Position numbers and translations under genes: made by a program
Notes under the pieces: model-generated
The model's database searches: none
Told to the model about the DNA's origin: nothing
The model's input: only the letters and a program-made list of their open reading frames with translations
In this document: positions 5,147 through 53,063 of the stretch, piece by piece
How positions within the stretch are numbered: the first letter of the stretch is position 1
How the letters are laid out: the number at the start of each line of letters is the position of its first letter
From: Candidatus Hydrogenedens sp.
GTDB lineage: Bacteria > Hydrogenedentota > Hydrogenedentia > Hydrogenedentales > Hydrogenedentaceae
Assembly: GCA_049968235.1 (NCBI GenBank)
Contig: JBMFRC010000017.1
Coordinates: 1-62,527 of the forward strand
Direction: 5' to 3'
Length of the DNA stretch: 62,527 nucleotides

Positions 5147-5155
5147 AAAGGCATT

Positions 5156-6046: not shown

Positions 6047-6077
6047 AGAAGGATAATAAAAAAGAAATATTATTGCT

Positions 6078-8026: not shown

Positions 8027-8053
8027 GTAAAGGAGTAAGGAGTTTATAAACAA

Positions 8054-9118: not shown

Positions 9119-9122
9119 AAAC

Positions 9123-9839: not shown

Positions 9840-9840
9840 T

Positions 9841-10671: not shown

Positions 10672-10672
10672 T

Positions 10673-28439: not shown

Positions 28440-29750
28440 ATGGATAAACGAGAATATATTGTATCAAAACTGTTTTGGATAATTTTACTTCTATTTTTCT
28501 TATCTTTGGGTTTTATATTCCAGAGTATATATCTTGTTTATGCAATTTATGTCTTTTTGATTATTTTTATAATTTCTGATTTCCTCAACAGGCTATGGTT
28601 AAAGGTTATAGAGTGTAATCGTAATGTCGGTCCATTGATAATTAATGAAGGACAGGAAGTAGAAGTAACTGTTTTTGTGCGTAATAAATTTTGGTTACCC
28701 ATCCCATGGTTGTATGTTGAGGATATAATTCCTTCGGGAAGTGAATGTATAGGGTCAAATGCTCAATTTTTAATGCTTATGCCCAATGAAATGATTACGA
28801 TTTCTTATAAATTACGATTTCCCCGACGAGGTTATCATAAAGTTGGACCCTTAATGTTAGAAACAGGCGATTTCTTTGGATTGCAAAGACGATTCCGCAC
28901 AGACGATAAGCAAGAATATATTACTGTATTACCTTCTGTGGTTTATATAAAAAGTTTTCAAGTATCTACACGCAGACCTCATGGTCCTATTAGAGTATCT
29001 CATAAGATTTATGAAGACCCCACACGAATTTACGGAATAAGGGAATATGTGCCGGGGGACCCAATAAAATCAATTCACTGGAAAGTCTCCGCTAAAGCGA
29101 ATAAATTACAGGTAAAAACCTATGAACCTGCAACTGTATTAGGAGCCACTCTTGCTATAGATATGTTTGAGGACAACTATCTCCCGCAAACAAGAGAAGA
29201 AAGGATGGAATTGGCAATTACAACAACTGCATCTATTGCTTACCTCCTTTATCTTTCGGGTGAACCTGTTGGACTGATTACAAATGGACTTGATGCAAGT
29301 GATAAGGCAAAATATTTTAGAGAACGGGAAACAGCCCTTGCTCGTGATGATCTGATTAAAAAATTGGTACAGGAGACACAGACAGAGCATATATCTCCCC
29401 TTAAGGTCCCTACAAAAAGGTCACCTGTCCAATTACAAAAAATATTAGAAAACCTTGCAAGAATTGTTCCTAATAAAGAGGTTAATATGACTTATCTCTT
29501 ACAAATAACGGCACCTCATATCCCCAGAGACAATGCTCTTGTATTGATAGTTCCTCAAGTTTCAGATGACCTCGCTTCAGTAATTGAAAATATGAAAGCA
29601 AGGGGATTTATTGTTAATGTATTTATAATTAAAGATGACAATGCCTATCAAGAGGCCGTTATTAAATTAGGAAAATTAGGGATTTTTGTTTTTCATATAC
29701 AGCATGAACAAGATTTGTTTTACATAGCACCGCAAAAGATTGGAGTTTGA
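28440..29750 (+). CDS. DUF58-family protein with N-terminal TM helices (a second MoxR-partner-type protein, with no MoxR adjacent).
   Basis: Two N-terminal TMs. IYGIREYVPGDPIKSIHWKVSAKANKLQVKTYE, the DUF58 core. 436 aa. Confidence 0.8.
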   Translation: MDKREYIVSKLFWIILLLFFLSLGFIFQSIYLVYAIYVFLIIFIISDFLNRLWLKVIECNRNVGPLIINEGQEVEVTVFVRNKFWLPIPWLYVEDIIPSGSECIGSNAQFLMLMPNEMITISYKLRFPRRGYHKVGPLMLETGDFFGLQRRFRTDDKQEYITVLPSVVYIKSFQVSTRRPHGPIRVSHKIYEDPTRIYGIREYVPGDPIKSIHWKVSAKANKLQVKTYEPATVLGATLAIDMFEDNYLPQTREERMELAITTTASIAYLLYLSGEPVGLITNGLDASDKAKYFRERETALARDDLIKKLVQETQTEHISPLKVPTKRSPVQLQKILENLARIVPNKEVNMTYLLQITAPHIPRDNALVLIVPQVSDDLASVIENMKARGFIVNVFIIKDDNAYQEAVIKLGKLGIFVFHIQHEQDLFYIAPQKIGV

Positions 29751-31489
29751 TGATGAAAATTCCAGAATGGATGGAAGACGGCAGTTTATCGTGGAGCGAA
29801 AAGAAAGAAGAACCTTCATCTAAACCAGTAACGGATGAAACTCCACCTCCTCGAATCCCTGTCCGGGAGGATTTTTTGGATATAAATATAATAAGAAACA
29901 AAAAAATTGGAGATATGGATTTTCACGCAAATTGGACTCTTACCGACACGCTTCTTAGTTTTATCAATCCCTTTCTTATTTTAATATTACTATGGTCTAT
30001 TGTATTTTTTCTGTTGGATGTTCGATATATATATACTGAGGTGAATGATAGGAATTTAAGGTTTGTTGTTTTTTGTTTTATTTTAGGTGTTGTGGCTGTA
30101 AACAGGATTTTTGCCACAGAAAGTGTGGAAGATGGGGTTGTGTATGGTTTTGCTTTGGGTTTAACAATAAGTTTTTATGTTGTAGTTAGTACCTCTATGT
30201 ATGGAACAGGTTCCTTTATATATAACCTCGTGACAGGAAATAATTTTATGGCATTCTTGTCCAACATGGGCGTAGTAATATTTTTATGGTGGCTTACGAA
30301 CAGGATAACTTACGAATGTTGTATTGATGAAAATATAAATGCCGGAGCAATTGGTATTACTACCAGTTTGAGTAAAGCATTTGAAAAAAGTAAACAGCAA
30401 AAGCCCCGAAAAGACCCTAAAATGCAAGGTCCTGATTTATTCTATGAATTGGAAGCGGTTGACCCTACACAATTAATATTTAAAGACCCTTCAGTAAAAG
30501 ATATTACTTTTAATGTTATGGGATTTGGAGACCGACTTTCTAAGATTCCTGCAGGTATATCAATATTATTCTTCAGTATCCCTGTTATGGGGATTTTCTC
30601 TTTAGGACTTCGTATTCTCGTAAATGGGGGTCAGAAGATAGTAAACGTCGGATGGTTTTATCTTGTGTTGTATGTCTTTTCTGCTTTATTGCTTCTTGTT
30701 ATGACAAGTCTTGGAGGACTTAGAGAATATTATAAAGTGAGGAAAGTTGCCGTCCCTTCATTGTTAGGTATTACATGGGTAATTTCCGGGATGTTAATTA
30801 TTATTATTGCTATGGTAAGTTCTGCCTATCTTCCATTACCTGCATTGCCAAAACCTTTTTATGTTGCAGAACATCAAGTGGACCCCTGGGTTCGTGAAAG
30901 CACTTTTCAATTAAATCCGGTTGTAGCAACTCCCATGGAAATATGGGAACAACAGATGATATTCCAAAAATTAGGATATGTGATAATCACACTTCTTGTT
31001 TTTGTCAGTATGTGGATTCTGTTTCAGGTAATTAAAAGACTATTTATAGAGTGGTTACAGATATCCGTGCAGAAGGGTGGAATTGGATTTCAGTGGTTAA
31101 GAAAATTTGTTGAACGAAGACCTAAGCAATTAAAAATCAGGAAGAAAGTATCCGTAAGTAAATCTAAATCAATTAAATTTGTTAACTCGTTATCCCATCC
31201 AGAAATGAGTAAGAAATTTAATCCAAATGAGCATATTGAATATGCATATCAGGCACTTTGTGCTCTGGCAGAAGATCTAGGTGTGCCTAAGAAACATAGT
31301 GAAACCCCATTAGAATTTTTGAAAAATTTGCCACAAAGTTTAGAAGTATTACGCGAAGAGATAGAAGAAATTACTCAACTATATCAAATTGTCGTTTTTT
31401 CACCGATAGTGTTTGATGAAAAAATTCTGGACCGTTTACGCAAATTTTGGATTTCATATAATCGAGTGAGAAACAAAATTGTGTATTAA
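29750..31489 (+). CDS. Polytopic membrane protein with a C-terminal DUF4129-like domain.
   Basis: Multiple TMs. C-terminal HIEYAYQALCALAEDLGVPKKHSETPLEFLKNLPQ (xPETPxEF signature). TGATG overlap with the DUF58 gene. Confidence 0.55.
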   Translation: MMKIPEWMEDGSLSWSEKKEEPSSKPVTDETPPPRIPVREDFLDINIIRNKKIGDMDFHANWTLTDTLLSFINPFLILILLWSIVFFLLDVRYIYTEVNDRNLRFVVFCFILGVVAVNRIFATESVEDGVVYGFALGLTISFYVVVSTSMYGTGSFIYNLVTGNNFMAFLSNMGVVIFLWWLTNRITYECCIDENINAGAIGITTSLSKAFEKSKQQKPRKDPKMQGPDLFYELEAVDPTQLIFKDPSVKDITFNVMGFGDRLSKIPAGISILFFSIPVMGIFSLGLRILVNGGQKIVNVGWFYLVLYVFSALLLLVMTSLGGLREYYKVRKVAVPSLLGITWVISGMLIIIIAMVSSAYLPLPALPKPFYVAEHQVDPWVRESTFQLNPVVATPMEIWEQQMIFQKLGYVIITLLVFVSMWILFQVIKRLFIEWLQISVQKGGIGFQWLRKFVERRPKQLKIRKKVSVSKSKSIKFVNSLSHPEMSKKFNPNEHIEYAYQALCALAEDLGVPKKHSETPLEFLKNLPQSLEVLREEIEEITQLYQIVVFSPIVFDEKILDRLRKFWISYNRVRNKIVY

Positions 31490-41817: not shown

Positions 41818-44517
41818 CTATGCACCTCCGGGAGCAAAACCATCTTCTGTATTTGGGTCCTGATGATAATAACCACCAGAACTATTAAACAACTGAATAA
41901 CACGCAATATCTCGTTTAGATTTATTTGAAAGTCAGGTGGATTGTAATCTGCAGTATGGTTGGAGCAATTTCTGGGTCCGGTTGGGATTGGTGCATATCC
42001 ATCTTCCGTTCCCTGTTTACACGAATAACCTCCTGCATTGTAAAATTGAATTACACGAAGAAGTTCAACTAACTCAATTCGCCAATTGCCATTAGTATCA
42101 CAGTTATGGTAAGGTAAAACTTCTCCTTCCGCTTGTCCTTCGGGTATCCCCTCAGGTGTTCCTTCTAATGTTCCTTCTGTCGTTCCTTCAGAAATACCTT
42201 CAATAGTCCCTTCATTTCCACATGCGTTGAATATCAATACCCATTCTTCTACACGTCCCTGGCCTCCTGAAACAGCATCTGCAACCTGAAGTGTCCATGT
42301 GCCATACATATTTTCACCAGTGAAAGTTGATAGTGGCATAGCAGGTGCGAATACGCCTGTATAAGGACTTGAACCTGCTTCAAGAGATATAGATGATGAA
42401 TCGGAGAATACCGTATTTACCATATTGATACCCCCTTGCGGAACGGATGTGAATAAAAGGACCTCAGTTCCTAAAGGAGATATCAGTTTCATTCTTAATT
42501 GACTGACATCCGGATGAGTTACCGTTACACGAATTTTCACATTTTGAATAATTCTTGAAAGAGGAACTTGTAAAGGTAAGAAACTATTACCCGGGTCTAA
42601 TAATGTAGAAAAATGATTGGTTTTGAATTCAACATCACAATCCGGATATTGAATTTCCCCTTCTCCTTCTACGGGTGTTCCTTCCCCTTCTCCTTCTTCT
42701 CCTTCAGGTTCTTCACCTTCTAATGTTCCCTCGAAGGTTGTCCGGGGGCATATTCCATCGTAGCCAACCCAACACCCTTTTGCTTCTAAAAGTGGTATTT
42801 GTTCACATAACACTGATTCAGGTAAAGGATTCCCTTCTAAACCTATCTCATCACCTGAACCTAAACCTACATTCTGGATTAGTGATTGAATATCTTCAAT
42901 TTGATTGTCCCATAAGAATAAATGTTCTAAATTTTCTAAGTTTTGTAGAGCATGTATATCGGATATGTTATTTCGTCCTAAATTGAGTAGTTTAAGTCCG
43001 AATAATGAACTTAAAGGTGAAATATCAGTAATATTATTATTCCATAAAATAAGTGTCTCTAAATTTCTGATTTTATAAATTCCCGTCAAATTTTGAATAT
43101 TACGAGAAGAAGCGTTAAGGGTCTTCAAAATAACAAGGTCACCTTCATAAATATCTTTTGTTTGTTCGTACCCCAGTGCATCTTTTACTGCTGCTTCTAA
43201 ATTGGGGTCATCAAAATGAACTACTTCTCCGGCACCGAAAACATCAATTAGAACTTTTTGGGATAACACCTCTTCTGTTCCGGATACTGCTCTGCATTGA
43301 TATTCACCCTGACTGGAACCTGATATAGGGTTAATAACCCATTGATTTGAATTCGGTCCTGAAATAACACCGTTATGACTCCAGTAAAAAGTCGGTACTG
43401 TCGTTCCACCTTTTACTTTAAATAAAAGCACCGCCTCTTCACCCACATTATACAAACCACCAACAGGTTGAATGAGTATCTGGAGAGGGACTTTACGTAC
43501 ACCCAGATATACGCCCCATGATTGTCTTCCTCCTAATCGAGTTGATGGGTTATAAATTGATGCAGAATCAGAAACCGCAATAGAAAATCGTGCATTGTCT
43601 AAGATTGTTGCATAAGGAATAATATAAGTTGAAGAATTGGGTCCCACAATTTCAAATGATGAAGGGAAAGAGTAACCGTTTGAATCTGTTCTTAACCACT
43701 GGAAGGTTAAAGGACCATCTCCTCCGGTTACCTGTACAGAAAGTGTCGCCTGGTCTCCTGTATCAATAACACCTGGATTTGCCCCAATACCTATTATTCT
43801 CGGAGGAGGAACAATACTACATCTACTAAACCATACTTCGCGTGTACCTGCCCCGGAATATGCCTGGATATTCGTTTGTCCATTTCCATCTATATCTCCA
43901 CCTGCACCTAAATAATTGGTTCCTGTATTTCCAAATGTTACATAACGACTCGGTCCAAAATTAATATAGTCATCTAAATTAATATAATTTAAAGCCCAAC
44001 CATAACCTTCCCGTTCTGCAAAATATCGCACAAGGTCTTTTAAGAAATTATTCAGAAAATTAAATGTTACAGAATCTCCACAAGTCATATAGCCCGCAAG
44101 GAAATACTGAACCGCAAAAGCAAGGAGAGGGTCCTTGTTACGAAGTTCATTAATTACATCAAAGTGCATTGTTTGCCCTAATACATTCAAAGTAATATTT
44201 AAGTCTCTTTCTACTTGTTGCATATTGGCTCGAAAGCCTTCTTGTATGGATATAATTCTGTCTAAAGGAATTTGCGGAGAATTATTTAACAAGACTGCAG
44301 ATAGTAATCCAAGATGGTCTTCCTCTTTTAGTCCATTACCATCACGGTCAGCTCCATAAATATGAGCAAATCTTCCAGGTGCCATGTCATCTAAGGTATA
44401 GTCAACTGCCCATAAAATATAATCATAATCTACATCGATGCGGTCTGTGTATCCTGAAAATGAATATATCAATGAGATTGCCAGGATTAGAATGTTAAGT
44501 AAGTTTCTAACTTTCAT
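41818..44517 (-). CDS. Large secreted surface protein: internalin-like LRR region, Ig-like domains, proprotein-convertase P-domain, Glu/Gly linkers, and a C-terminal tandem EF-hand/dockerin-like module.
   Basis: Signal MKVRNLLNILILAISLIYSFS, with Shine-Dalgarno GGAGG before the internal ATG at 44517. 22-aa LRRs NLETLILWNNNITDISPLSSLFGLKLLNLGRNNISDIHALQNLENLEHLFLWDNQIEDIQSL. Ig-like FQWLRTDSNG and GEYQCRAVSG. P-domain IRVTVTHPDVSQLRMKLISPLGTEVLLF...GTWTLQVADAVSGGQG. C-terminal DTNGNWRIELVELLRVIQFYN...EDGYAP and a second copy. Confidence 0.7.
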   Translation of the reverse strand: MKVRNLLNILILAISLIYSFSGYTDRIDVDYDYILWAVDYTLDDMAPGRFAHIYGADRDGNGLKEEDHLGLLSAVLLNNSPQIPLDRIISIQEGFRANMQQVERDLNITLNVLGQTMHFDVINELRNKDPLLAFAVQYFLAGYMTCGDSVTFNFLNNFLKDLVRYFAEREGYGWALNYINLDDYINFGPSRYVTFGNTGTNYLGAGGDIDGNGQTNIQAYSGAGTREVWFSRCSIVPPPRIIGIGANPGVIDTGDQATLSVQVTGGDGPLTFQWLRTDSNGYSFPSSFEIVGPNSSTYIIPYATILDNARFSIAVSDSASIYNPSTRLGGRQSWGVYLGVRKVPLQILIQPVGGLYNVGEEAVLLFKVKGGTTVPTFYWSHNGVISGPNSNQWVINPISGSSQGEYQCRAVSGTEEVLSQKVLIDVFGAGEVVHFDDPNLEAAVKDALGYEQTKDIYEGDLVILKTLNASSRNIQNLTGIYKIRNLETLILWNNNITDISPLSSLFGLKLLNLGRNNISDIHALQNLENLEHLFLWDNQIEDIQSLIQNVGLGSGDEIGLEGNPLPESVLCEQIPLLEAKGCWVGYDGICPRTTFEGTLEGEEPEGEEGEGEGTPVEGEGEIQYPDCDVEFKTNHFSTLLDPGNSFLPLQVPLSRIIQNVKIRVTVTHPDVSQLRMKLISPLGTEVLLFTSVPQGGINMVNTVFSDSSSISLEAGSSPYTGVFAPAMPLSTFTGENMYGTWTLQVADAVSGGQGRVEEWVLIFNACGNEGTIEGISEGTTEGTLEGTPEGIPEGQAEGEVLPYHNCDTNGNWRIELVELLRVIQFYNAGGYSCKQGTEDGYAPIPTGPRNCSNHTADYNPPDFQINLNEILRVIQLFNSSGGYYHQDPNTEDGFAPGGA

Positions 44518-44771
44518 ATTTTGCCTCCAAATTATATACATATTTTTATTTATTCCTGATTAAATATTATATCCTATTTTTATTATATAACAAATCCATT
44601 AACAAAAATTAAATTAAAATGCCAAATTTTTAACATAATATTTTTGTATAAAAATATGTGATTCTTTATTGTAAAAATTGAAAAACAAGTTTGTTTTATT
44701 TTATATTTTAGTTTATACTTATATTGTGATTTAATTATGATATTTTTTAATTAAAAATAAAGGTAAATCAG

Positions 44772-46982
44772 ATGACAATGAAAGAGAGTAGATATAAAAT
44801 GAAAATCGAGTTTCTATTTTTTTTATTTTTATTCACAATATTTTGTTTATTTCCTCCTGTCTATGCTCAAGATATATTCGGATTGCTTTACAACGCTAAT
44901 GAAGGTTCTGGACATCAGGACCGTCCTTTAAATCTTGCAAATCGAACAGGGAACATTACAATTGATACAGACTCTATGTTGATATATGGCGATATTACTC
45001 CGACTCGTTATGGAGAAGAAGTGGCAGGAGTATGTGTGTTTCGTTTTAGTTATGTTAATTTAGGTCCTAATGTAAATGTAACAATTCAAGGGAAACGACC
45101 TCTGGCAATATTGTCTGCGACAGATATGGTTATCAATACAAATTTGATAGTTGCCCCTGGAACATTAGGAGGTGCTTTTGGTGGAGAAGGGGGCAAAGGT
45201 GGAGAAGGAGGTAAAGCAGGTAGTGGAATGGGTGCAGAAGGGGGTTTTGGTGGAAATGCAGGAGCGGGTGGCTTGGGTTACGATGAAGCAAGTAATGGTC
45301 ATGCGGGAACAGTTGGAACAAAAGGGAATAATTCGGGTCCTGGAACATGGGAAGGAGAATTTATCCCGGAAGGTGGAAGTGGTGAAAATGGCAAAGCAGG
45401 AAAGAACGGACAATGTTATATTTCTGCCAGTTCTTTGCTTATAGCAGGGGGTAGTGGAGGAGGTGGTGGCGGCGGTGGCGGCGGAAGAGGAGGTTCTGGT
45501 GATGGTGGCGGTGGCGGAGGTGGTGGTTCTGGAGGCGGTGGTGGTGGTGCTTTCACATTAATTCTTCCTACGGAAAAATCAGGTGAAGGGGGTGGGATTG
45601 GAACCTCTGTTGGTGGTGCCGGTGGAGATGGAGGTAGCGGTGGAAATGGTGGCACTGGGGCTTTAGGTGGTGCTGGAGGAGATAATTATCCATTAGGTTC
45701 TAAAGAGGTTGTTACACTGTTCATAAAAGATTATGGAGAAAATGGTGGAGATGGAGGCAAAGGTGGAACAGGTGGTGGTGCATTAATTTTAGGTGCAAGA
45801 GGAATGCTAACGCTTGGTAATAATATCATCATAGATATATCTGCTGGAATACCCGAAAATGGAACGACAGGTACAGGTGGTGGAGCAGGAGGGAGAGGAG
45901 GATATGGAACACCCGGTATGCTAAAACTTCAAGGTTCTCTTATTAACCTTCCTGCGGGTGTCTTACGCCCAACAATTAAAGCCAATTATTCGGGTGACCT
46001 TTACGCAGAATCAAATGGCAGGGTAACTTTAATCACAAATATGTCCCAATATTTACTTGGTTTTAGATTACCGAATTTTTCTAATCCGGGGACATTAATT
46101 GGTTGGACATTAAACAATTCTGTTTTGAGAGATTATAATGTGTTTAATCCGACAGAAGATACTCCCCTGATACCTGAATTAAGTTCCGGGCTTAATGTCG
46201 AAGGGTATTTGAATAATAATGTGCTTTATGAAAACATTATAGAAGCCACAGAACCGGAATCTGTTGTAAGAAATGTTGAACTCAAAAGAATTACCGGAAT
46301 TAATTCATATTTTGAAGGTTTTGACCATATTATTTTGATTAATCAGGGAGAGATTTATTTATCACGAGTATATTTAAAAGTAGGAAGTAATAATCCTATG
46401 CCTATTGGTTTTGGAACGGGAGACCTTGCAGTTGGTGCACGATGGACAACTTTAATTCCAACGACAAATCCTCTTACTGATGTAGAAGTAATAATTTTAG
46501 ATAATATTCCCGGGGAAGGTGAAGGGGTGTCAGAAGGAATAGTCGAAGGTGAAGGAGTAATAGAAGGAATAGCAGAAGGGGAGGGGATAGCCGAAGGTAT
46601 TATGGAAGGCGAAGGGCAACAGGAAGGAACTATTGAAGGAGCATCTGATGGTGAAGGAGTAGTAGAGGGAAGTTCAGAAGGGGAAATATGCACATATCAT
46701 TCTGCAGATACAAATAAAGACTGGATAATCAATCTTGCCGAATTGTTAAGAGCTATACAATTATTTAATTCTAATCAATATCATTGTGATGAAGCTACGG
46801 AGGATGGGTATGCTCCGGGAGCCGGATTACAAAATTGTCAACCCCATAAAAGTGATTATAGTCCTGTGTCCTGGAAAATAGAATTAAATGAACTATTGAG
46901 GCTTATACAATTTTTTAATTCCCCCGGAAGTAGATACCATTGTGATACGAATGGCGAAGATGGATACAATCCGGGAATATAA
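44772..46982 (+). CDS. Secreted Gly-rich surface protein; paralog of the N-terminal part of the 47110 gene, with the same C-terminal tandem EF-hand/dockerin-like module as the 41818 gene.
   Basis: Signal MKIEFLFFLFLFTIFCLFPPVYA. Conserved block CVFRFSYVNLGPNVNVTIQGKRPLAILSATDMVIN. About 250 aa of GGxGG low complexity. GTPGMLKLQGS...NGRVTLITNM. EGEG linker. C-terminal ICTYHSADTNKDWIINLAELLRAIQLFNS...EDGYAPG, then NCQPHKSDYSPVSWKIELNELLRLIQFFNS...EDGYNPGI. Confidence 0.7.
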   Translation: MTMKESRYKMKIEFLFFLFLFTIFCLFPPVYAQDIFGLLYNANEGSGHQDRPLNLANRTGNITIDTDSMLIYGDITPTRYGEEVAGVCVFRFSYVNLGPNVNVTIQGKRPLAILSATDMVINTNLIVAPGTLGGAFGGEGGKGGEGGKAGSGMGAEGGFGGNAGAGGLGYDEASNGHAGTVGTKGNNSGPGTWEGEFIPEGGSGENGKAGKNGQCYISASSLLIAGGSGGGGGGGGGGRGGSGDGGGGGGGGSGGGGGGAFTLILPTEKSGEGGGIGTSVGGAGGDGGSGGNGGTGALGGAGGDNYPLGSKEVVTLFIKDYGENGGDGGKGGTGGGALILGARGMLTLGNNIIIDISAGIPENGTTGTGGGAGGRGGYGTPGMLKLQGSLINLPAGVLRPTIKANYSGDLYAESNGRVTLITNMSQYLLGFRLPNFSNPGTLIGWTLNNSVLRDYNVFNPTEDTPLIPELSSGLNVEGYLNNNVLYENIIEATEPESVVRNVELKRITGINSYFEGFDHIILINQGEIYLSRVYLKVGSNNPMPIGFGTGDLAVGARWTTLIPTTNPLTDVEVIILDNIPGEGEGVSEGIVEGEGVIEGIAEGEGIAEGIMEGEGQQEGTIEGASDGEGVVEGSSEGEICTYHSADTNKDWIINLAELLRAIQLFNSNQYHCDEATEDGYAPGAGLQNCQPHKSDYSPVSWKIELNELLRLIQFFNSPGSRYHCDTNGEDGYNPGI
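45440..45560 (+). repeat. (GGN)n glycine-codon microsatellite-like tract inside the 44772 gene.
   Basis: ggtagtggaggaggtggtggcggcggtggcggcggaagaggaggttctggtgatggtggcggtggcggaggtggtggttctggaggcggtggtggtggt, encoding GGSGGGGGGGGGGRGGSGDGGGGGGGGSGGGGGG. Confidence 0.8.
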
Positions 46983-47109
46983 AATATGGTATTATTTAAT
47001 AGTAAGTTTTTATTGACTTTTGAAATGAAAAAGGTTATAATAAAGTTAAATATAATTAAGGATTAATAATAATTATCAATAAACTACAATATACAAAGGA
47101 GGAAGGATA

Positions 47110-50100
47110 ATGAAAATTTATGTGCTCAAAAGTAGTATTGGTCTTTTGTTCGTATTTGCTGTGTGTATGCTGATACTAACATTAGACGCACATACTCAGA
47201 CTTCTTCGGCATATTATGTCGGAGACCCAAATGGTCCGGATTTGAATGCACCCAGTGGTTCAACACTGGTATTTAATACGGATGCATTGACCATGACAGG
47301 ACAAAATGGAGCAACGCCATTCAGTCATAATGCAAGTAATGAAGGTGGTGTTGCCGTTTATAGGTTTAAAAATGTCAATATTTCGACAGGTGTGACAATA
47401 AATGTATTAGGTTCAAGACCATTAGCTTTATCAGCCTATCGAGATATGTCAATTGCCTCCTCATTTAATGTAAATGGTTCAGTAGCGGGTCGTTCTGGTG
47501 GTGGTGTTGGCGGAAGTGGTGGTGTTGGGGGAGCAGGTCGCCCTGGTGGTTCAACGGCGGGTGCTGGTGGTGCGGGGGGGCCAGGCAGACCCGGTGGACC
47601 CGGTGCAGATTCTTTCTGGCAACAGGGACAACCCGGTCAAAATGGTGTAGGAGGTTCAGATGGTTCTCCTGGTCAAAATGGTTTTGCAGGTCAGAACGGT
47701 GGTGCAGGTGAGCCAGGTACTTTTGGATTTGGAACACAGGGGGGTCCTTCTGGAGGCACATTAGGTCAGGGTGGAACGGTAGGTGGTGCAGGTGCTCAAA
47801 ATGGAGTGGGTTCAACAGCAGTTGGTACTTTAGGTGGAGGTGGTAGTACAAGTTTCCCTCATGGTAGTAATGGTGGAAATGGAACAAATGCAAATTCATC
47901 TTTACCGGGAACAAATGGACAAAATGGACAGGCAGGTGAAAGTGGGAAAAATGGTGGAGATGGTTATAGTGGTGTTTTTAATGTTCCTGTTAATACATTA
48001 GATTTATTCGGTGGTGCTGGTGGAGGCGGAGGTGGAGGCGGAGGTGGAGGTCAAGGTGGTGGTCAAGGTGGTGGTGGAGGTGGTGGTGCTAGCGGAGGTA
48101 GTGGTGGTGGCGGTGGTGCAGGTGAGTATCTTGCGGACCGTGCAAATGGAGGTAGTGGTGGAGCCAGTGGAAAAGGTGGTGATGGTGGAAGAGGTGGTAA
48201 TGGAGGTGTTGGCGGAAGTGGAGGTAACGGTGGTAATGGAGCAAATGGTGGTGGTGCAATAATACTTTCTGCTCGTGGTTTATTAAGAGTTCCATCCCTT
48301 ATGACCGTAGATGTTTCCTGTACATCCCCTACAACAGGTTCTTCCGGTTCTCTTGCCCCTGCATTAGGGCAACCAGGTGGTCCTCAAGTAGGGTATCCAT
48401 CTACGGGAAGAGGTTTTGGACAGGCAGGTGGTGAAGGTCAAGTAATTAATTTGTTGTTATTTACCATTGAAGGAGGAGATGGCGGTAGAGGTGGAGATGG
48501 AAATTTAGGTGGTGCAGGTGGAAATGGAGCGGTAGGTGGTAACGGTGGTTCCGGTGGGAACGGTGGATATGCAACTCCGGGTATGGTTAAACTACATGGT
48601 TCTATTGTTATTGCCAATAATCTTGTTGTAACAGCAGGAGGAGCCAGAGATGCTTCTGCTGAGAATAATGGAAAATTAACACTAATTTCTAATATGAATG
48701 ATACATTGATTAATGCATATCAGCCGAATACTTCCCTTTCAACACCTACATTAGTTCGCGGTTCAACAACAAATCCTGCTATTCAAGGGATTTCTAATTT
48801 TACAGATGAAATTAGATTTCCTAATCATTATTATAAACATCCATTTATTCCGCAATTACTTCAAGGACCTTCCGTTGAAGGACTTTTACAGTCTCCATAC
48901 TGGAATGAGAGTTTTGTGAATGCTATAACACCCAATCAAGTTATTCCTGCTGGGGCACCGCCAATGACCCCAAGAGTAGTATTAAAAAGACTTAATTATG
49001 GATATGGAAATAATTACAGTCCATTTAAAGAGTTTGACCAGATTGTTGTTATCAATGAATCTTCAACACAAACATTTTCAGGTTTATATTTGAAAGTAGA
49101 TAATGCTACAGCGAATCCTCCTGCAACTCCGAAGAAAATTAATAATGGTACAGGAGAACTGGCACCGGGACAAATCTGGACAACGACAGTTCCGTATGAT
49201 GCTCAGGTAACATTATTACAATTGGCACAGATAACTCAGCAACCTACGGATGTCGCTGTTTGGCCCGGTGGTTATGCGCAATTTAGTGTTGTTGCCCAAA
49301 GTTCATCATCGATTGATTATCAGTGGTTCCGTAATACAGATGGAACATTCAGAGAGATAATAGGTGCTACAAATAGTTCGTATGAAATTTTAACTGTATC
49401 CGAAGCATTACAGGGATGGTATCGAGTACGTCTCAGAAATAATGCCGGAGATGTATTTTCAAGAGATGCTTTCCTGAATGTTCTTGAAGCACCCATTATT
49501 ACTCAACATCCGCAGGATGTAAATGAGTATCCTAATATGTTGGTTTCGTTTAATGTGGAAACATTGAAGCCTACAGACCCACCTCCTGCCCCGGGTATTG
49601 ACCCATCTATTGATTATACAATAGTAAGTCGTGGGTATCAGTGGCAGTTTGCTCCACAGTTAGAACCGCCTGAATTACCTCCTGAAACAGTTCCACCAAG
49701 TGAAAATTTCTATGATTTGCCGGGGGCTGATGCAAGAGAAAAAACATATAATATTGCATCAATAAGTGAGGCAAATCAAGGGTGGTATCGAGTTAAAGTA
49801 ATGAATGATACGGGAACCGCTATATCAAATCCAGCAAAGTTAAATGTCTATGATGGTGTTCGAATTTTAGAACAACCTACAAGTATATCCGCACCACCCC
49901 ATGCTAATGTTACATTCCAGACACGGGTAACGGGTGCGTTACCTATTTGGTGGCAATGGCAAGTAGCTCCATCTACAAATGGTCCATGGACAAATATTCC
50001 TGGACAAACCGGTTCGTATCCAATAGGAACTTCACCGAGTGGTAATCCACCAGGATTTACAATTACTGCTAATATCCTTGATGTTACAGCAAACGCGTAT

Positions 50101-51546
50101 TATCGTTGTAAAGTATTTAATGGCGGGAATCTATTAGGAGTTCTTACAGACCCAGCCTATTTAGAAATTCGTGACCCGGCTATTATGGTTCAGCCGACAT
50201 CTAAATCTGTAAATCCGGGACAGGCTGTAAACTTTGTCGTTTCGGCAGGTGGCTCAGGTGTCCTGACTTATAGATGGTATTTCTTCCCTGCAGATTTAGA
50301 TGGAGAAACAATGCCTCCTCCTCCGAATGTATGTGATTTACCTCAGCCATGTGCAGAGAATATTATATACCAAGGCTCAGGTTCTTCTTATGCAATCTAT
50401 AATATTTATGGTCCCCCAATAGGACCAGGTGCACAAGAATCCAACGAAGGTTATTACTATGTCCGTGTGGATAATTCAATGGGACATGTAGAGTCTGTCG
50501 TTGTTTACTTGAAAGTTAATGACCCACCTACAATTATAACTCAACCTGCTAATGATCAAGTGGATGAAGGTGGTGCTACGACATTGTCTGTAACTGCATA
50601 TAGCGGAACAAATGTTACATATCAGTGGCGATTGAATGGTATAAACCTTACAAGTGATGGAGTTCATATATTTGGAGCAACACTTAATGCATTACCGGGT
50701 ACCACAACAAGTACACTACAAATACTTGGTGCTCGTATAGAAGATGAAGGCTATTATGATGTTGTAATTACAAACTCTGCAGGTTATGTAATTTCTAATC
50801 AAGCTTACTTAATTGTTGGTGACCCATTGGAAATAGTAGAAACAGAGAATCCGGGCAAAGCATATATAAATTCGCCGGAAGTCCGGTTGAGTGTAACAAC
50901 ACAAGGTGGAAAGGGCACAAGAACCTATCAATGGTATAAGAATGGCACAGGTCCTTCGAATGCAATTGGCAGTCCTATTTTAAGTAATGCAGACCCATAC
51001 ACTGCATATCTGACTTTGTATGATGTTACCCTTGCAGATTCCGGTATCTACTACTGCAGTATCACGGATGCCCGGGGAACTCTTTGGACACCCGCGTTGC
51101 AGTTAACTATTTATGAACATTTGTCAACACCAATTATTGCCGGTGACCCAGAGGTAGAGAAGAAAGTCGGAGAATCGTATACATTTGAAGTAATCGTAAG
51201 TGGTGGTGTCCCACCGTTACATTACTTATGGCAACATGATGACCTGAATACAAAGACTGTTTATACAGTTGGAGGCGATTCTTCAATATTAACTCTTAAT
51301 GACCTACAGGTTACAGATTCCGGTGACTATTATGTTGTTGTGAGTGATAGCGGTGAAACATGGAATGAAGAAACACAACAATATGAACCCGAAACTAAGG
51401 TATCCAATCGGATACGATTGAATGTATCTCCAGAAATTCCTGCGGGAAATGTGTTTGGATATATTATCCTTGTGATGCTTATTACAATAATGGGTGTATA
51501 TGCAGTGAAACGGTTTGAAAGAAGACCGAAAAAACAGCACAGTTAG
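47110..51546 (+). CDS. Giant (1478 aa) secreted, C-terminally membrane-anchored protein: paralogous Gly-rich N-terminal region plus seven I-set Ig-like repeats.
   Basis: Strong Shine-Dalgarno AGGAGG. Signal/TM LLFVFAVCMLILTL. Block VAVYRFKNVNISTGVTINVLGSRPLALSAYRDMSI paralogous to the 44772 gene. GGxGG tract. ATPGMVKLHGS...NGKLTLISNM. Seven repeats of Y(Q/R)W...NG...G.Y.(C/V).(V/I).N..G (for example YQWFRNTDG...GWYRVRLRNNAGDV; YQWRLNG...GYYDVVITNSAGYV). C-terminus SPEIPAGNVFGYIILVMLITIMGVYAVKRFERRPKKQHS (TM plus basic tail). Confidence 0.75.
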   Translation: MKIYVLKSSIGLLFVFAVCMLILTLDAHTQTSSAYYVGDPNGPDLNAPSGSTLVFNTDALTMTGQNGATPFSHNASNEGGVAVYRFKNVNISTGVTINVLGSRPLALSAYRDMSIASSFNVNGSVAGRSGGGVGGSGGVGGAGRPGGSTAGAGGAGGPGRPGGPGADSFWQQGQPGQNGVGGSDGSPGQNGFAGQNGGAGEPGTFGFGTQGGPSGGTLGQGGTVGGAGAQNGVGSTAVGTLGGGGSTSFPHGSNGGNGTNANSSLPGTNGQNGQAGESGKNGGDGYSGVFNVPVNTLDLFGGAGGGGGGGGGGGQGGGQGGGGGGGASGGSGGGGGAGEYLADRANGGSGGASGKGGDGGRGGNGGVGGSGGNGGNGANGGGAIILSARGLLRVPSLMTVDVSCTSPTTGSSGSLAPALGQPGGPQVGYPSTGRGFGQAGGEGQVINLLLFTIEGGDGGRGGDGNLGGAGGNGAVGGNGGSGGNGGYATPGMVKLHGSIVIANNLVVTAGGARDASAENNGKLTLISNMNDTLINAYQPNTSLSTPTLVRGSTTNPAIQGISNFTDEIRFPNHYYKHPFIPQLLQGPSVEGLLQSPYWNESFVNAITPNQVIPAGAPPMTPRVVLKRLNYGYGNNYSPFKEFDQIVVINESSTQTFSGLYLKVDNATANPPATPKKINNGTGELAPGQIWTTTVPYDAQVTLLQLAQITQQPTDVAVWPGGYAQFSVVAQSSSSIDYQWFRNTDGTFREIIGATNSSYEILTVSEALQGWYRVRLRNNAGDVFSRDAFLNVLEAPIITQHPQDVNEYPNMLVSFNVETLKPTDPPPAPGIDPSIDYTIVSRGYQWQFAPQLEPPELPPETVPPSENFYDLPGADAREKTYNIASISEANQGWYRVKVMNDTGTAISNPAKLNVYDGVRILEQPTSISAPPHANVTFQTRVTGALPIWWQWQVAPSTNGPWTNIPGQTGSYPIGTSPSGNPPGFTITANILDVTANAYYRCKVFNGGNLLGVLTDPAYLEIRDPAIMVQPTSKSVNPGQAVNFVVSAGGSGVLTYRWYFFPADLDGETMPPPPNVCDLPQPCAENIIYQGSGSSYAIYNIYGPPIGPGAQESNEGYYYVRVDNSMGHVESVVVYLKVNDPPTIITQPANDQVDEGGATTLSVTAYSGTNVTYQWRLNGINLTSDGVHIFGATLNALPGTTTSTLQILGARIEDEGYYDVVITNSAGYVISNQAYLIVGDPLEIVETENPGKAYINSPEVRLSVTTQGGKGTRTYQWYKNGTGPSNAIGSPILSNADPYTAYLTLYDVTLADSGIYYCSITDARGTLWTPALQLTIYEHLSTPIIAGDPEVEKKVGESYTFEVIVSGGVPPLHYLWQHDDLNTKTVYTVGGDSSILTLNDLQVTDSGDYYVVVSDSGETWNEETQQYEPETKVSNRIRLNVSPEIPAGNVFGYIILVMLITIMGVYAVKRFERRPKKQHS
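48000..48125 (+). repeat. (GGN)n glycine-codon tract inside the 47110 gene.
   Basis: ggtggtgctggtggaggcggaggtggaggcggaggtggaggtcaaggtggtggtcaaggtggtggtggaggtggtggtgctagcggaggtagtggtggtggcggtggtgca. Confidence 0.8.
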
Positions 51547-51575
51547 GTATTGAAAAAATCAAAGTGAATAGCAAG

Positions 51576-51614
51576 GTCTGCTGGATACAAAATGTCCAGC
51601 AGACTTTCTTTATT
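51576..51614 (+). terminator. Rho-independent terminator after the 1478-aa gene.
   Basis: GTCTGCTGGA-tacaaaatg-TCCAGCAGAC perfect 10-bp stem followed by TTTCTTTATT. Confidence 0.7.
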
Positions 51615-51647: not shown

Positions 51648-53063
51648 ATGCTTATTATGATTAATTTTATATTTTATTTTTCGATGTTCATTTTCAATGG
51701 AATAGAAACAATTTCAGAAGAAATTAGACTCTTGCCTGTTTATCAATTAACTTTTTCAGCGAAAAATCATGAATTAGACAATAACGATAATTTTTCGTAT
51801 GATGACAGATTTATTTGTTATGACACGAGAGGAAGTTTAGGTTATGGGATAGAAAATTGTACAAGTATTGAAATAGTAGAAATCTCAACAGGGAAAGAGA
51901 TAAAAATATATCAACCTAATAAAATACGATTAGGTACAAAACCTGCTCCGGGAATTGGTGCTGTTTCATTTCATCCACAAGAATATTCATTAGTTTTCAT
52001 TCACGGTCCTGAAATTCAAAATTTATATAATCCCATTCAAATTGAAGATATTTATTCAAAAACAAATCGGCGAGGTTGTATTATTTCTCTAAGTGAAGAT
52101 TTAATCGTAAAAAACAGAACTTGGGTTGATTTCAGGTCCGTTTCTTGTGATACAGAAATTCCGCCAGGGGCACAAAGGGGAGGGTCACATCGACATGAAT
52201 ATTCACTGAATGGTAAAAGGATAGGTTGTACTTATGATGATAAATTACTACCACAGTATGGCAGGACAATCGCATATTTTGAAAAAACAGATACATTATT
52301 ACCCAATGCAAGTTATTATTTTGCTCTACTTGTTAAAGTAGTGCCACCAGAACTCGCAAAAGAGGGCGATTTTGTTAAGGCTTTGGGTGACTCATGGGTT
52401 GACCCGGAAGGGAAAATGAGAGCATTTATTGGGACTATCAAAGAAGGAGAAAACTTTGTAGATTATTTGTGCATTGTTGAAATACCCGAAGATGTAGATA
52501 TTCAATCTTCAAAATCTGGAAGTTGTATAGAATATCCTGAACCTCCGAAAGGGCTTAATGTATATAAAATCACAAAAGTAAACTGCTCAGGGATTGTTCG
52601 TTGTTCTTATGATGGTAAAAGAATAGCCTATCTTGATAAAGATATAAATGGGAAAACTCAAATTTTTATGATAACAAAGAAAAAAGAAGATGAGAGAAAA
52701 TCATTTGAATATTCACAACCTATTCAAGTTACATTTTTGCCTAATGGTGTTGAAGATAATATGAGATGGCATCCTTCTAACAATATAATATTTTCGATTA
52801 GCGAAGGGGCCATTATTGCTGTATATGTTAAGGAAGGAAAAAATTTCGGAAAATCTATTTTTATTACACCAAAATATAAGATAAATAAGCCATATGCATT
52901 AGTAGTATCGAGAAAAGGAGAGTATTTAGCCTTTAACCGCTGTGTTCCAACTTATGATGAAAGGGGTGTAAGATTGTTTTCAACAGAAGGTAAGGATTTT
53001 TCTCAGATATTTTTACTGAGATTCAAAGGTGGTGATACAGATATTTTTACTCATATAGAGTAA
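51648..53063 (+). CDS. Hypothetical TolB-like beta-propeller protein (PD40-like repeats).
   Basis: FSYDDRFICYDTRGS and CSYDGKRIAYLDKDINGKTQIFMI resemble PD40 / WD40-like beta-propeller repeats. N-terminal hydrophobic segment. 471 aa. Confidence 0.4.
   Translation: MLIMINFIFYFSMFIFNGIETISEEIRLLPVYQLTFSAKNHELDNNDNFSYDDRFICYDTRGSLGYGIENCTSIEIVEISTGKEIKIYQPNKIRLGTKPAPGIGAVSFHPQEYSLVFIHGPEIQNLYNPIQIEDIYSKTNRRGCIISLSEDLIVKNRTWVDFRSVSCDTEIPPGAQRGGSHRHEYSLNGKRIGCTYDDKLLPQYGRTIAYFEKTDTLLPNASYYFALLVKVVPPELAKEGDFVKALGDSWVDPEGKMRAFIGTIKEGENFVDYLCIVEIPEDVDIQSSKSGSCIEYPEPPKGLNVYKITKVNCSGIVRCSYDGKRIAYLDKDINGKTQIFMITKKKEDERKSFEYSQPIQVTFLPNGVEDNMRWHPSNNIIFSISEGAIIAVYVKEGKNFGKSIFITPKYKINKPYALVVSRKGEYLAFNRCVPTYDERGVRLFSTEGKDFSQIFLLRFKGGDTDIFTHIE

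What the first reader, a model, noticed from the sequence alone, without database searches (positions are those of the whole stretch)
41818..51546. Locus of three giant surface proteins that may form a cohesin/dockerin-like cell-surface assembly system
Three adjacent genes (907, 736 and 1478 aa) encode signal-peptide proteins built from eukaryote-like adhesion modules: internalin-type LRRs, a P-domain, I-set Ig-like repeats and Gly-rich tracts. The two divergently transcribed genes (41818..44517 minus; 44772..46982 plus) both end in the same tandem Ca-loop/helix module, which resembles an EF-hand/dockerin repeat. The third protein lacks that module. Instead it has seven Ig-like beta-sandwich repeats and a C-terminal TM anchor with a basic tail. 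Inference: it could be the membrane-anchored scaffold (cohesin-like receptor) onto which the other two dock. I do not recognise this exact architecture or C-terminal module as a described system.
Basis: partly seen in the sequence, partly recalled or inferred. Interest (0 to 1): 0.7.

Follow-up and report, generated by a model that had tools for sequence, protein, structure and literature searches.

The report
New dockerin-like tag on surface adhesins
Two of three neighbouring giant surface-protein genes of an uncultured Hydrogenedentota bacterium end in an undescribed calcium-loop module. The module tags thousands of secreted proteins in that phylum and is genetically tied to true cohesin genes, so it is probably a new kind of dockerin; the third protein is not its receptor.

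Summary
Three ORFs encode signal-peptide proteins with the stated domains. P1 and P2 share a C-terminal module (50% identity over 149 aa, E 9e-38). P3 has seven Ig-like repeats, one TM helix and a basic tail.

It occurs in about 3,000 protein clusters, dozens per Hydrogenedentota genome, on unrelated passenger domains. Most copies are C-terminal; some are N-terminal, tandem or stand-alone.

P2 and P3 are paralogues with a Gly-rich beta-helix. True cohesins exist in the phylum: a conserved signal peptide–cohesin–module protein lies in operons with TM-anchored cohesins and classical dockerins.

Verdict: a new dockerin-like docking or tethering module. The dockerin-like reading is partly supported. 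P3 as the cohesin-like scaffold is not. The receptor is unproven; anchored cohesins are the best candidates.

The parts
41818..44541 (-). P1 gene (907 aa; probable true start at 44517, 899 aa). Architecture: signal peptide, unknown N-domain, 2 Ig, internalin-type LRR, (EG)n linker, P-domain, (EG)n linker, module.
41821..42114 (-). P1 C-terminal tandem F-hand module (aa 810-907). Variant form: Cys replaces the conserved Ala before loop 1, and repeat 2 has no Cys pair.
42115..42219 (-). P1 acidic Glu/Gly-rich linker before the module. A second such linker lies at 42652-42738.
   Evidence: sequence reading
42229..42546 (-). P1 proprotein-convertase P-domain (aa 666-771).
   Evidence: PF01483, 47.9 bits
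42748..43221 (-). P1 internalin-type leucine-rich repeats (aa ~441-598).
43252..43806 (-). P1 two Ig_3/I-set-like domains (aa ~246-430).
44542..44771 (.). Divergent P1/P2 intergenic region with sigma-70-like hexamer matches on both strands. Consensus matches only.
44772..46982 (+). P2 gene (736 aa). Architecture: signal peptide, Gly-rich right-handed beta-helix, (EG)n linker, module.
44868..46508 (+). P2 beta-helix region. The Gly-rich part at 45153-45905 is 43% Gly and was not modelled with confidence.
46509..46688 (+). P2 60-aa (EGx)n acidic linker.
46689..46979 (+). P2 C-terminal tandem F-hand module (aa 640-736). AF2 model pLDDT 86.
47110..51546 (+). P3 gene (1478 aa). Architecture: signal peptide, beta-helix paralogous to P2, 7 Ig-like repeats, TM anchor, basic tail. 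No module.
47197..49251 (+). P3 N-terminal Gly-rich beta-helix region, paralogous to P2.
49252..51429 (+). P3 seven Ig-like (I-set/Ig_3) repeats.
51451..51543 (+). P3 C-terminal TM helix (aa 1448-1466) and basic tail KRFERRPKKQHS, preceded by the conserved SPEIP(A/V)GN.
51573..51607 (+). Terminator-like hairpin (15-bp stem) just after P3.

Best explanation
The locus is a conserved three-gene cluster for Sec-exported envelope or surface adhesins of a Candidatus Hydrogenedens-like bacterium.
- P1 is an Ig/LRR/P-domain protein.
- P2 is a Gly-rich right-handed beta-helix.
- P3 is a paralogous beta-helix followed by seven Ig-like domains and a C-terminal TM anchor.

P1 and P2 end, after a flexible acidic (EGx)n linker, in a ~95-aa module that is an internal duplication. 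Each half is a Ca2+-type loop, an amphipathic helix ELLRxIQFFN and a Cys-braced hairpin YHC..TEDGYxPG. Loop 1 has the canonical EF-hand ligand pattern, and there is no entering helix. That makes it an 'F-hand' pair, as in dockerins.

Proposed mechanism (inferred, not shown): outside the cytoplasm the module folds with Ca2+ and disulfides. It then acts as a non-covalent docking or tethering device that holds many different passenger proteins on one shared receptor at the cell envelope. It would be a dockerin analogue.

The best candidate receptors are the single-cohesin proteins with a C-terminal TM anchor. They are encoded in operons together with a conserved 'cohesin + module' adaptor-like protein. 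P3 is not the receptor. It is a sister of P2 that reaches the envelope through its own TM anchor instead of the module.
For: Shown:
- Module homology between P1 and P2: E 9e-38.
- Internal duplication: hhalign probability 99.9%, E 6.7e-33, with a one-residue insertion in loop 2.
- Consensus of 277 unique modules: D(100%)-x-[ND]-x-[DN]-x-x-[IV]-[SND]-x-x-E(100%) in loop 1. Cys36 and Cys53 are conserved at 98-99%.
- The profile against PDB lists almost only EF-hand proteins aligned on loop 1 plus helix 1, at E 0.04-0.5.
- EF-hand_6 passes the Pfam cut-off on family member P0010 (26.2 bits; cut-off 25). Dockerin_1 reaches 21.3 against a cut-off of 22.9.
- AF2 model: pLDDT 86, loop-helix-hairpin twice.
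- 3,002 clusters at 50% identity carry the module.
- 137 of the best 155 have it within 10 aa of the C-end. Others have it right after the signal peptide, in tandem arrays or alone.
- 89 Pfam families occur among 70 carriers.
- 500 confirmed stretches in genome representatives. All of the best 77 loci are Hydrogenedentota MAGs by record title or by contig set, and 19-25 copies from a single genome are among them.
- Modules are ~70% identical within a genome against 64% between genomes; 0 of 2000 permutations reach this.
- Same passenger, either anchor: P2 has the module and P3 a TM anchor; P3-like L033 and L034 have the module.
- A conserved signal peptide-cohesin-module protein occurs in at least 12 loci or clusters. 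Pfam Cohesin passes its cut-off in 4 of 6 tested. The profile hits only cohesins in PDB, 18 of 18.
- Operons in L028, L037 and L082 combine this protein with TM-anchored cohesins and classical dockerin proteins; L075 pairs it with a TM-anchored cohesin only.
- The four closest genomes holding the P1-P2-P3 or P2-P3 cluster also hold the cohesin-module gene (L005, L007, L008, L009).
Against: - No binding data exist, and no multimer prediction was possible.
- The window modules themselves miss the EF-hand and Dockerin cut-offs: 14 bits, or nothing.
- Loop 2 is a non-canonical 13-residue loop containing Pro.
- Classical dockerins lie in the same operons and could be the real partners of those cohesins.
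- In the window's low-GC lineage the cohesin-like domain is divergent: no Pfam hit, hhalign probability 76%. No anchored cohesin was seen there.
- Module-only proteins and TM-anchored arrays of modules (P0003/4/6, P0015, P0016, P0119) are unusual for dockerins.
- It is unknown whether these bacteria have an outer membrane, so 'surface' may in fact mean periplasmic face.
Confidence: 0.5

Rival explanations
1. The module is an envelope anchor for a non-protein or unrelated receptor (LPS/EPS glycan, peptidoglycan or an S-layer). The cohesins of the phylum bind only the classical dockerins. In the cohesin-module protein the module merely replaces the TM anchor used by the sister cohesins.
For: Choice-of-anchor pattern seen twice:
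- P2 has the module and P3 a TM anchor.
- One cohesin has the module and three have TM anchors in L082.
Classical dockerin genes sit in the same operons. Many aromatic and His residues are conserved (W65 98%, Y60 96%, Y84 99%, H7/H56), as in sugar-binding sites. No recurrent protein partner lies next to module genes.
Against: There is no similarity to any known carbohydrate- or wall-binding module. TM-anchored proteins that display only modules (P0016, P0015, P0119) would not need a second envelope anchor. B-type anchored cohesins form a separate class from the A and C types, which leaves room for a second ligand type.
Confidence: 0.22
2. One reading: P3 is the membrane-anchored scaffold, and its seven Ig-like repeats are the cohesin-like receptors on which the modules of P1 and P2 dock.
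For: The P1-P2-P3 order, or at least P2-P3, is conserved in L001, L006, L004, L013, L002, L003 and L058, with P1 and P2 divergent in L029. Protein identity falls as low as 47-49%. P3 is anchored and multivalent.
Against: - The repeats are I-set/Ig_3, not cohesin.
- P1 itself carries the same kind of Ig domain.
- P3 shares its N-terminal 700 aa with P2.
- P3-like proteins L033 and L034 carry the module.
- About 90% of module genes in 78 loci have no such neighbour, and only 5 loci hold a complete multi-Ig TM-anchored protein.
- Dozens of carriers per genome would have to share one locus-specific scaffold.
Confidence: 0.06
3. The module is a sorting or secretion signal read by a dedicated export or attachment machinery (as with T9SS CTD, PEP-CTERM/exosortase or LPXTG/sortase). 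It may be removed after transport.
For: It sits at the extreme C-terminus in 88% of carriers, on many unrelated secreted proteins per genome, mostly within one phylum.
Against: - It also lies directly after the signal peptide (P0057, P0085, P0116, P0135, P0144, and 11 loci), internally, in tandem arrays and alone.
- The fold is a helix/loop with disulfides, not a beta-sandwich CTD or a TM tripartite signal.
- NCBIfam sorting-signal models give nothing at E<=10.
- No conserved machinery gene lies nearby.
Confidence: 0.07
4. Modules bind one another in a Ca2+-dependent way. Tagged proteins, module-only proteins and TM-anchored module arrays would then form a self-associating extracellular mesh, a cadherin-like logic, without a separate receptor.
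For: Stand-alone signal peptide plus module proteins, tandem arrays of 2-5 modules, and TM-anchored arrays exist. Module sequence is very strongly conserved on unrelated passengers and is homogenised within genomes.
Against: There is no direct evidence. The arrays are mostly in divergent sequences, at least one of them from CPR rather than Hydrogenedentota. Solved dockerins and EF-hand pairs normally pair their two halves within one chain (background knowledge).
Confidence: 0.07
5. The module is only a Ca2+-stabilised structural cap or folding nucleus with no binding role.
For: It has Ca-loop features and disulfides. No partner has been demonstrated.
Against: About 40 of 97 positions are at least 85% conserved across unrelated proteins, including exposed Arg, Gln, Asn, His and Trp. 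The module lies at the end of long flexible linkers, and stand-alone copies exist. All of this argues for a shared interaction surface.
Confidence: 0.05

Closest known systems
Type I/II/III dockerin modules (Pfam PF00404) of cellulosomal and non-cellulosomal cohesin-dockerin systems
   Same: - Tandem duplicated Ca-loop plus helix ('F-hand') with no entering helix.
- Placed at a protein terminus after a flexible linker.
- Present on many unrelated secreted proteins per genome.
- Occasionally N-terminal or doubled.
- Occurs in genomes, operons and even polypeptides with true cohesins.
   Different: - ~95 aa rather than ~60-70.
- Each half carries an extra Cys-braced beta-hairpin (YHC..TEDGYxPG).
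- Loop position 12 is Glu, as in EF-hands, where dockerins have Asp (the dockerin residue is background knowledge).
- Loop 2 has 13 residues including a Pro.
- PF00404 does not reach its cut-off.
- Cohesin binding is untested.
- Passengers are mostly adhesin-like rather than glycoside hydrolases.
EF-hand pairs (Pfam EF-hand_6/EF-hand_7; calmodulin, hippocalcin, calcineurin B)
   Same: Loop 1 fits the canonical 12-residue pattern D-x-[DN]-x-[DN]-x-x-I-[SND]-x-x-E followed by a helix. EF-hand proteins dominate the sub-threshold PDB sequence hits. One family member passes the EF-hand_6 cut-off.
   Different: There is no entering (E) helix. The module is extracytoplasmic and disulfide-bonded, the second loop is non-canonical, the hairpins are extra, and it is used as a terminal tag.
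C-terminal sorting domains (T9SS CTD, PEP-CTERM, LPXTG, GlyGly-CTERM) and Haft's 'choice-of-anchor' logic
   Same: A lineage-restricted tag on many secreted proteins. Homologous passengers carry either the tag or a TM-type C-terminal anchor.
   Different: It is not a beta-sandwich and not a motif-TM-basic tripartite signal. It works at either end, in tandem or alone. No NCBIfam model matches.
Two-partner-secretion and autotransporter beta-helix adhesins (EtpA, HMW1, FHA; VacA, Ag43), for the P2/P3 N-terminal region
   Different: There is no Pfam Haemagg_act/TPS or autotransporter domain. Half of the model (the 43% Gly part) has low confidence. There is no beta-barrel partner. The proteins are anchored by the module or by a TM helix.

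Membership tests
Dockerin (PF00404) | Sequence match to the Dockerin_1 profile at or above its gathering score (22.9 bits) | tested here: not met
   No Dockerin_1 hit for the P1 or P2 modules even at E<=10. Family members are near threshold only: P0010 21.3 bits, P0005 15.1.
Dockerin (PF00404) | Tandem duplication of a Ca-binding loop followed by a helix (F-hand), with no entering helix | tested here: met
   hhalign of repeat 1 against repeat 2: probability 99.9%, E 6.7e-33. The AF2 secondary structure is coil-helix-hairpin twice.
Dockerin (PF00404) | Acidic or amide ligands at loop positions 1, 3, 5, 9 and 12 in both loops | tested here: inconclusive
   Loop 1 fits: D 100%, N/D 93%, D/N 97%, S/N/D 81%, E 100%. 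Loop 2 has an extra residue and a Pro (D-Y-N-P-Q-D-W-x-I-x-L-S-E). Metal binding was not measured.
Dockerin (PF00404) | Fold superposes on solved dockerins | tested here: inconclusive
Dockerin (PF00404) | Binds a cohesin | not testable with these tools
   Only indirect evidence: fusion to cohesin in a conserved ~260-aa protein, and operons with TM-anchored cohesins.
Dockerin (PF00404) | Cohesin-bearing proteins present in the same genomes | tested here: met
   PF00963 passes its cut-off in L075 (53.2 bits), L037 gene C (51.2), L028, L037 and L010. Profile A5 hits only cohesins in PDB. The L082 cluster holds 4 cohesin genes. In the window's own lineage the domain is divergent: hhalign probability 76%.
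Cohesin (PF00963), for the P3 Ig repeats | Match to the cohesin profile; ~140-aa jelly-roll domain | tested here: not met
   P3 gives only Ig_3, I-set, V-set and Ig_2 hits, and no Cohesin hit at E<=0.1. The repeat period is ~105 aa. The Hydrogenedentota cohesin HMM finds nothing in the window.
EF-hand (PF13405/PF13499) | Profile match at or above the gathering score; helix-loop-helix | tested here: not met
   Window P2 module: EF-hand_6 at 14 bits against a cut-off of 25. P1 module: none. P0010 passes at 26.2 bits. There is no entering helix in the model.
T9SS CTD / PEP-CTERM / other NCBIfam sorting signals | Model match, and strictly C-terminal position | tested here: not met
   NCBIfam finds nothing at E<=10 for the module or for the P3 tail. 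The module is also N-terminal, internal, tandem or stand-alone.
Internalin-type LRR / Ig I-set / P-domain (passenger domains of P1 and P3) | Pfam matches above the gathering score | tested here: met
   LRR_4 43.4, LRR_8 33.9, Ig_3 43.3, P_proprotein 47.9 bits in P1. Ig_3 135.3 and I-set 95.5 bits in P3.
TpsA (two-partner secretion) adhesins, for P2/P3 | Haemagg_act/TPS domain; right-handed beta-helix | tested here: inconclusive

The most novel reading that the evidence does not exclude
Hydrogenedentota (and, in divergent form, some CPR bacteria) use a previously unrecognised, disulfide-braced double F-hand module as a second dockerin type, orthogonal to the classical one. In this reading it docks a secretome of dozens to hundreds of adhesin-like proteins per cell onto membrane-anchored single-cohesin receptors, with a cohesin-module adaptor in between. 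That would be a non-cellulolytic 'adhesin-some' with two tiers of cohesin-dockerin specificity.
Probability: 0.3. Interest if true: 0.8.

Novelty: new variant of a known kind. Interest (0 to 1): 0.62.

Why it matters
If the module is a dockerin analogue, it defines a large protein family (about 3,000 clusters) that no library recognises. It would also give the first handle on how an uncultured, globally distributed phylum displays its surface proteins. The work names concrete candidate receptors, the anchored cohesins, so the hypothesis can be tested with a few recombinant proteins. A small, Ca2+-switchable, disulfide-stabilised docking pair orthogonal to classical cohesin-dockerin pairs would also be useful for designer protein scaffolds. 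In annotation terms, thousands of 'hypothetical' proteins would become recognisable as envelope-tethered proteins.

Tried and rejected
- Pfam and NCBIfam on the full proteins and on the isolated module and P3 tail: no family for the module or the tail.
- PDB by sequence with two profiles: only sub-threshold EF-hand hits.
- Foldseek against PDB: nothing significant.
- The afdb50 library was unavailable.
- The word-indexed homologue search returned only 8-20 short hits and gave no taxonomic breadth.
- Clustering of all neighbours in 78 loci did not reveal a recurrent non-module partner.
- Contexts of stand-alone module genes and of a CPR tandem-module gene were housekeeping.
- No module was found in IMG/VR viral contigs.
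- The AF2 model of the P2 N-region was only half confident, so the beta-helix assignment rests on ~250 residues.
- Two Hydrogenedentota genome papers and a biogas MAG paper mention nothing about this module.
- Peer et al. 2009 on non-cellulosomal cohesins and dockerins is not held.
- Rejected: T9SS CTD, PEP-CTERM or RTX/T1SS identity. The fold is wrong, signal peptides are present and the position is not strictly C-terminal.
- Rejected: P3 Ig repeats as cohesins.
Full report
**1. The observation**

The three ORFs exist as described.
- P1: 41818..44541 (-), 907 aa. It gives the 899 aa of the closest orthologue.
- P2: 44772..46982 (+), 736 aa.
- P3: 47110..51546 (+), 1478 aa.

All three begin with signal-peptide-like N-termini, judged by reading the sequence.

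Pfam finds the following:
- P1: two Ig_3 domains, LRR_4/LRR_8 and a proprotein-convertase P-domain at 666-771.
- P3: Ig_3, I-set and V-set, only in the C-terminal half.
- P2: nothing.

NCBIfam gives only partial internalin LRR matches.

P1 and P2 share their last ~149 aa at 50% identity, E 9e-38. The ELLRxIQFFN motif occurs four times in the whole window, twice in each of these genes.

P3 has seven Ig-like repeats with a period of ~105 aa, a TM helix at 1448-1466 and a 12-residue basic tail.

That region contains tracts of 42-43% Gly.

**2. Source and context**

The flanking genes are ordinary chromosomal genes:
- a MoxR/DUF58/VWA/BatD operon;
- GlnD, HtrA proteases and MnmG;
- GGDEF response regulators;
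- G6PD and a sugar ABC transporter;
- ThiF, FapA and superoxide dismutase.

All close relatives of the three proteins come from Candidatus Hydrogenedens / Hydrogenedentota MAGs. Some are deposited under the label 'Nitrospirales'.

The gene order is conserved.
- P1-P2-P3 occurs in L001, L006, L004 and L013.
- P2-P3 occurs in L002, L003 and L058.
- P1 and P2 are divergent neighbours in L029.

Protein identity falls from 84% to 47% across these loci. This is a real, conserved gene cluster.

**3. Anatomy of the module**

Repeat 1 and repeat 2 of the module are clearly homologous. hhalign gives probability 99.9% and E 6.7e-33 over 42 columns, with a one-residue insertion in loop 2.

The consensus of 277 unique modules reads:
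- Repeat 1: H-[ST]-A-D-x-[ND]-x-[DN]-x-x-[IV]-[SND]-L-S-E-LLRVIQFFN-SGG-YHC-xxG-TEDGYAPG-xGxxxC.
- Repeat 2: PH-x-S-D-Y-N-P-Q-D-W-x-I-x-L-S-E-LLRLIQFFN-SGG-YH-x-C-xx-TEDGFCPG.

Loop 1 has the canonical EF-hand ligand positions 1, 3, 5, 9 and 12 and the hydrophobic position 8. Asp1 and Glu12 are invariant. Loop 2 has 13 residues. Cys36 and Cys53 are conserved at 98-99%, and a second Cys pair at 68%. This fits an extracytoplasmic, disulfide-bonded domain.

The AF2 model has pLDDT 86 and pTM 0.78. It shows coil, helix and beta-hairpin twice, with no helix before the loops.

**4. Is it a known family?**

Sequence libraries do not recognise it.
- Pfam and NCBIfam find no family for the isolated module, even at E<=10. 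The only match is EF-hand_6 at 14 bits on the P2 module.
- Some relatives come closer. On P0010, EF-hand_6 passes its cut-off (26.2 against 25) and Dockerin_1 nearly does (21.3 against 22.9).
- Against PDB sequences nothing is significant. About 50 of the 60 listed sub-threshold hits are EF-hand proteins, all aligned on loop 1 plus helix 1.

Structure comparison points weakly to dockerins.
- Foldseek finds nothing significant.

I read this as a distant F-hand relative, dockerin-like in topology, with a hairpin extension of its own. It is not a member of PF00404.

**5. Distribution**

A profile search of 1.84 billion representatives finds 3,002 clusters at E<=1e-3 and 2,497 at E<=1e-10.

Position in the best 155:
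- 137 have the module within 10 residues of the C-end.
- Others have it directly after the signal peptide: P0057, P0085, P0116, P0135, P0144.
- Others have it internally, or in tandem arrays of two to five.
- Some proteins are signal peptide plus module only.

Seventy carriers hold 89 different Pfam families, mainly Ig-like, InlB B-repeat, beta-helix, LRR, PASTA, CHRD and PMP repeats.

The scan of genome representatives confirmed 500 stretches. All of the best 77 loci lie in Hydrogenedentota MAGs, by record title or by contig set. Single genomes contribute 19-25 copies to that top list alone.

An E/G-rich linker precedes the module in 35-43% of C-terminal carriers.

Modules on unrelated proteins of one genome are ~70% identical, against 64% between genomes. 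None of 2000 permutations reaches this difference.

Divergent tandem copies also occur in a Candidatus Buchananbacteria (CPR) protein. They also occur in type-I membrane proteins that display several modules.

NCBI names the carriers 'hypothetical' or 'LRR domain-containing'. Two Hydrogenedentota genome papers do not mention the module.

**6. The third protein**

- P3's repeats are Ig domains, not cohesins.
- Its N-terminal 700 aa are homologous to P2.
- Relatives of that N-terminal region in L033 and L034 end in the module instead of a TM anchor.
- A more distant relative, P0173, ends in GVPVAG + TM + RRRRRQ.
- Complete multi-Ig, TM-anchored neighbours occur in only 5 of 78 loci. Four are orthologues of this locus.

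P2 and P3 are therefore sister beta-helix adhesins with alternative attachment devices. This is the pattern Haft calls 'choice of anchor' (background knowledge). It argues that the module serves localisation, not that P3 receives it.

**7. True cohesins**

One recurrent carrier is a 254-305-aa protein made of a signal peptide, a ~140-aa domain and the module. It occurs in L005, L007-L010, L019, L028, L037, L075, P0124 and P0098.

That domain is a cohesin.
- PF00963 passes its cut-off in four of six tested, up to 53.2 bits.
- A profile of these domains hits only cohesins in PDB: 18 of 18, best E 1.6e-6.

The copies in the window's low-GC lineage are divergent (hhalign probability 76%, E 2.4e-5). 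They lie in the same four genomes that hold the P1-P2-P3 or P2-P3 cluster.

The operon in L037 and L028 reads, in order:
- a 482-512-aa protein with an N-terminal classical dockerin (GDVNLDGxxNVLDVQ...; Dockerin_1 20.5 bits in the L028 copy; for the L037 copy's dockerin segment the only PDB hits are dockerins);
- the cohesin-module protein;
- a cohesin with a long Pro-rich stalk, a TM helix and a basic tail;
- a further cohesin; in L037, where it is complete, it carries a short stalk and a hydrophobic, basic C-end (Pfam 51.2 bits), while the L028 copy is cut by the contig end.

L075 has the cohesin-module gene next to a cohesin-TM gene.

L082 has two small classical-dockerin proteins, three TM-anchored cohesins and the cohesin-module protein in a row.

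The stalked 'B' cohesins form a class apart from the A and C types.

Classical dockerin loops are rare in the ~1 Mb of DNA sampled. Five proteins have a clearly dockerin-like loop followed by a helix, against about 100 module carriers. The sample is biased towards modules.

**8. Mechanism**

Shown:
- the architecture of the module;
- the EF-hand-type ligand pattern;
- mass occurrence as a terminal tag on secreted proteins;
- genetic linkage and fusion to cohesins.

Inferred:
- the module binds Ca2+ and forms disulfides outside the cytoplasm;
- it tethers its passenger non-covalently to a shared envelope receptor.

My preferred receptor is an anchored cohesin. This follows adaptor logic: classical dockerin binds the A cohesin, and the module binds a B or C cohesin. 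The same data also fit a module that anchors to something else, with all cohesins serving the classical dockerins. I give the docking or tethering role about 0.5, and the cohesin receptor about 0.3 overall. The P3-scaffold model gets about 0.06.

**9. Verdict**

The finding is real. It is more interesting for the module than for the three-gene locus itself. The module is a new variant of the dockerin/F-hand kind, and none of Pfam-A, NCBIfam release 20 or the PDB recognises it. The proposed cohesin-like role of P3 is not.

Noticed in passing
L028:1-3719, L037:533-4600, L075:345-2158, L082:1093-6670: Hydrogenedentota carry compact cohesin/dockerin operons. They hold small proteins with classical dockerins, up to three single-cohesin proteins with C-terminal TM anchors (one class with a long Pro-rich stalk, another ending PGCG(CG) plus a hydrophobic, basic C-end), and one cohesin fused to the new module.
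   Followed up: partly
window 51430-51543; also P0173 C-end and L071:6228-10982 C-end: P3 orthologues end in a conserved SPEIP(A/V)GN + TM + basic tail. P0173 ends GVPVAG + TM + RRRRRQ, and an unrelated Ig protein ends GIPAS + TM + RKKAWLRK. This motif-TM-basic layout resembles a sortase- or exosortase-type sorting signal, but no NCBIfam model matches it.
   Followed up: partly
P0024 (L080/L081:8001-9008), P0015, P0016, P0119: Divergent copies of the module occur in tandem in a Candidatus Buchananbacteria (CPR) protein. They also occur in type-I membrane proteins that display 2-5 modules above a C-terminal TM helix. The fold is therefore not confined to Hydrogenedentota.
   Followed up: partly
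window 43807-44451 (P1 aa 31-245): The N-terminal domain of P1 has no Pfam match. It contains further EF-hand/dockerin-like loops (GADRDGNGLKEED, GGDIDGNGQTNIQAY). The domain recurs in L050, L066 and L024 proteins.
   Followed up: no
window 45153-45905 and 47461-48567: The 42-43% Gly tracts (GGxGGxGG runs interrupted by short hydrophobic strands) recall PE_PGRS-type sequences. AF2 could not model them (pLDDT ~25). They explain the locally higher G+C (0.39-0.43 against 0.32-0.36) and the long spurious antisense ORFs at 46355-46693 and 47465-47914.
   Followed up: partly
window 4160-12565: A Bat-like operon: MoxR AAA ATPase, DUF58, two VWA proteins and a BatD-domain protein. A second DUF58/DUF4129 pair lies at 28440-31489.
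   Followed up: no
window 16006-17487, 21149-22549, 22524-23912: Three HtrA/DegP-type Trypsin_2-PDZ proteases lie within 8 kb. The third has a weak protease domain.
   Followed up: no
window 51648-53063: A DUF3748 protein directly follows P3. The same is true in L001, L002 and L006. This may be plain synteny among close relatives.
   Followed up: no
L028:4527-8309 and L037:5872-8208: Large module-bearing proteins are transcribed divergently from the cohesin operons. They contain repeated DxNGNGVIDCxD Ca-loop-like units separated by (EG)n linkers.
   Followed up: no
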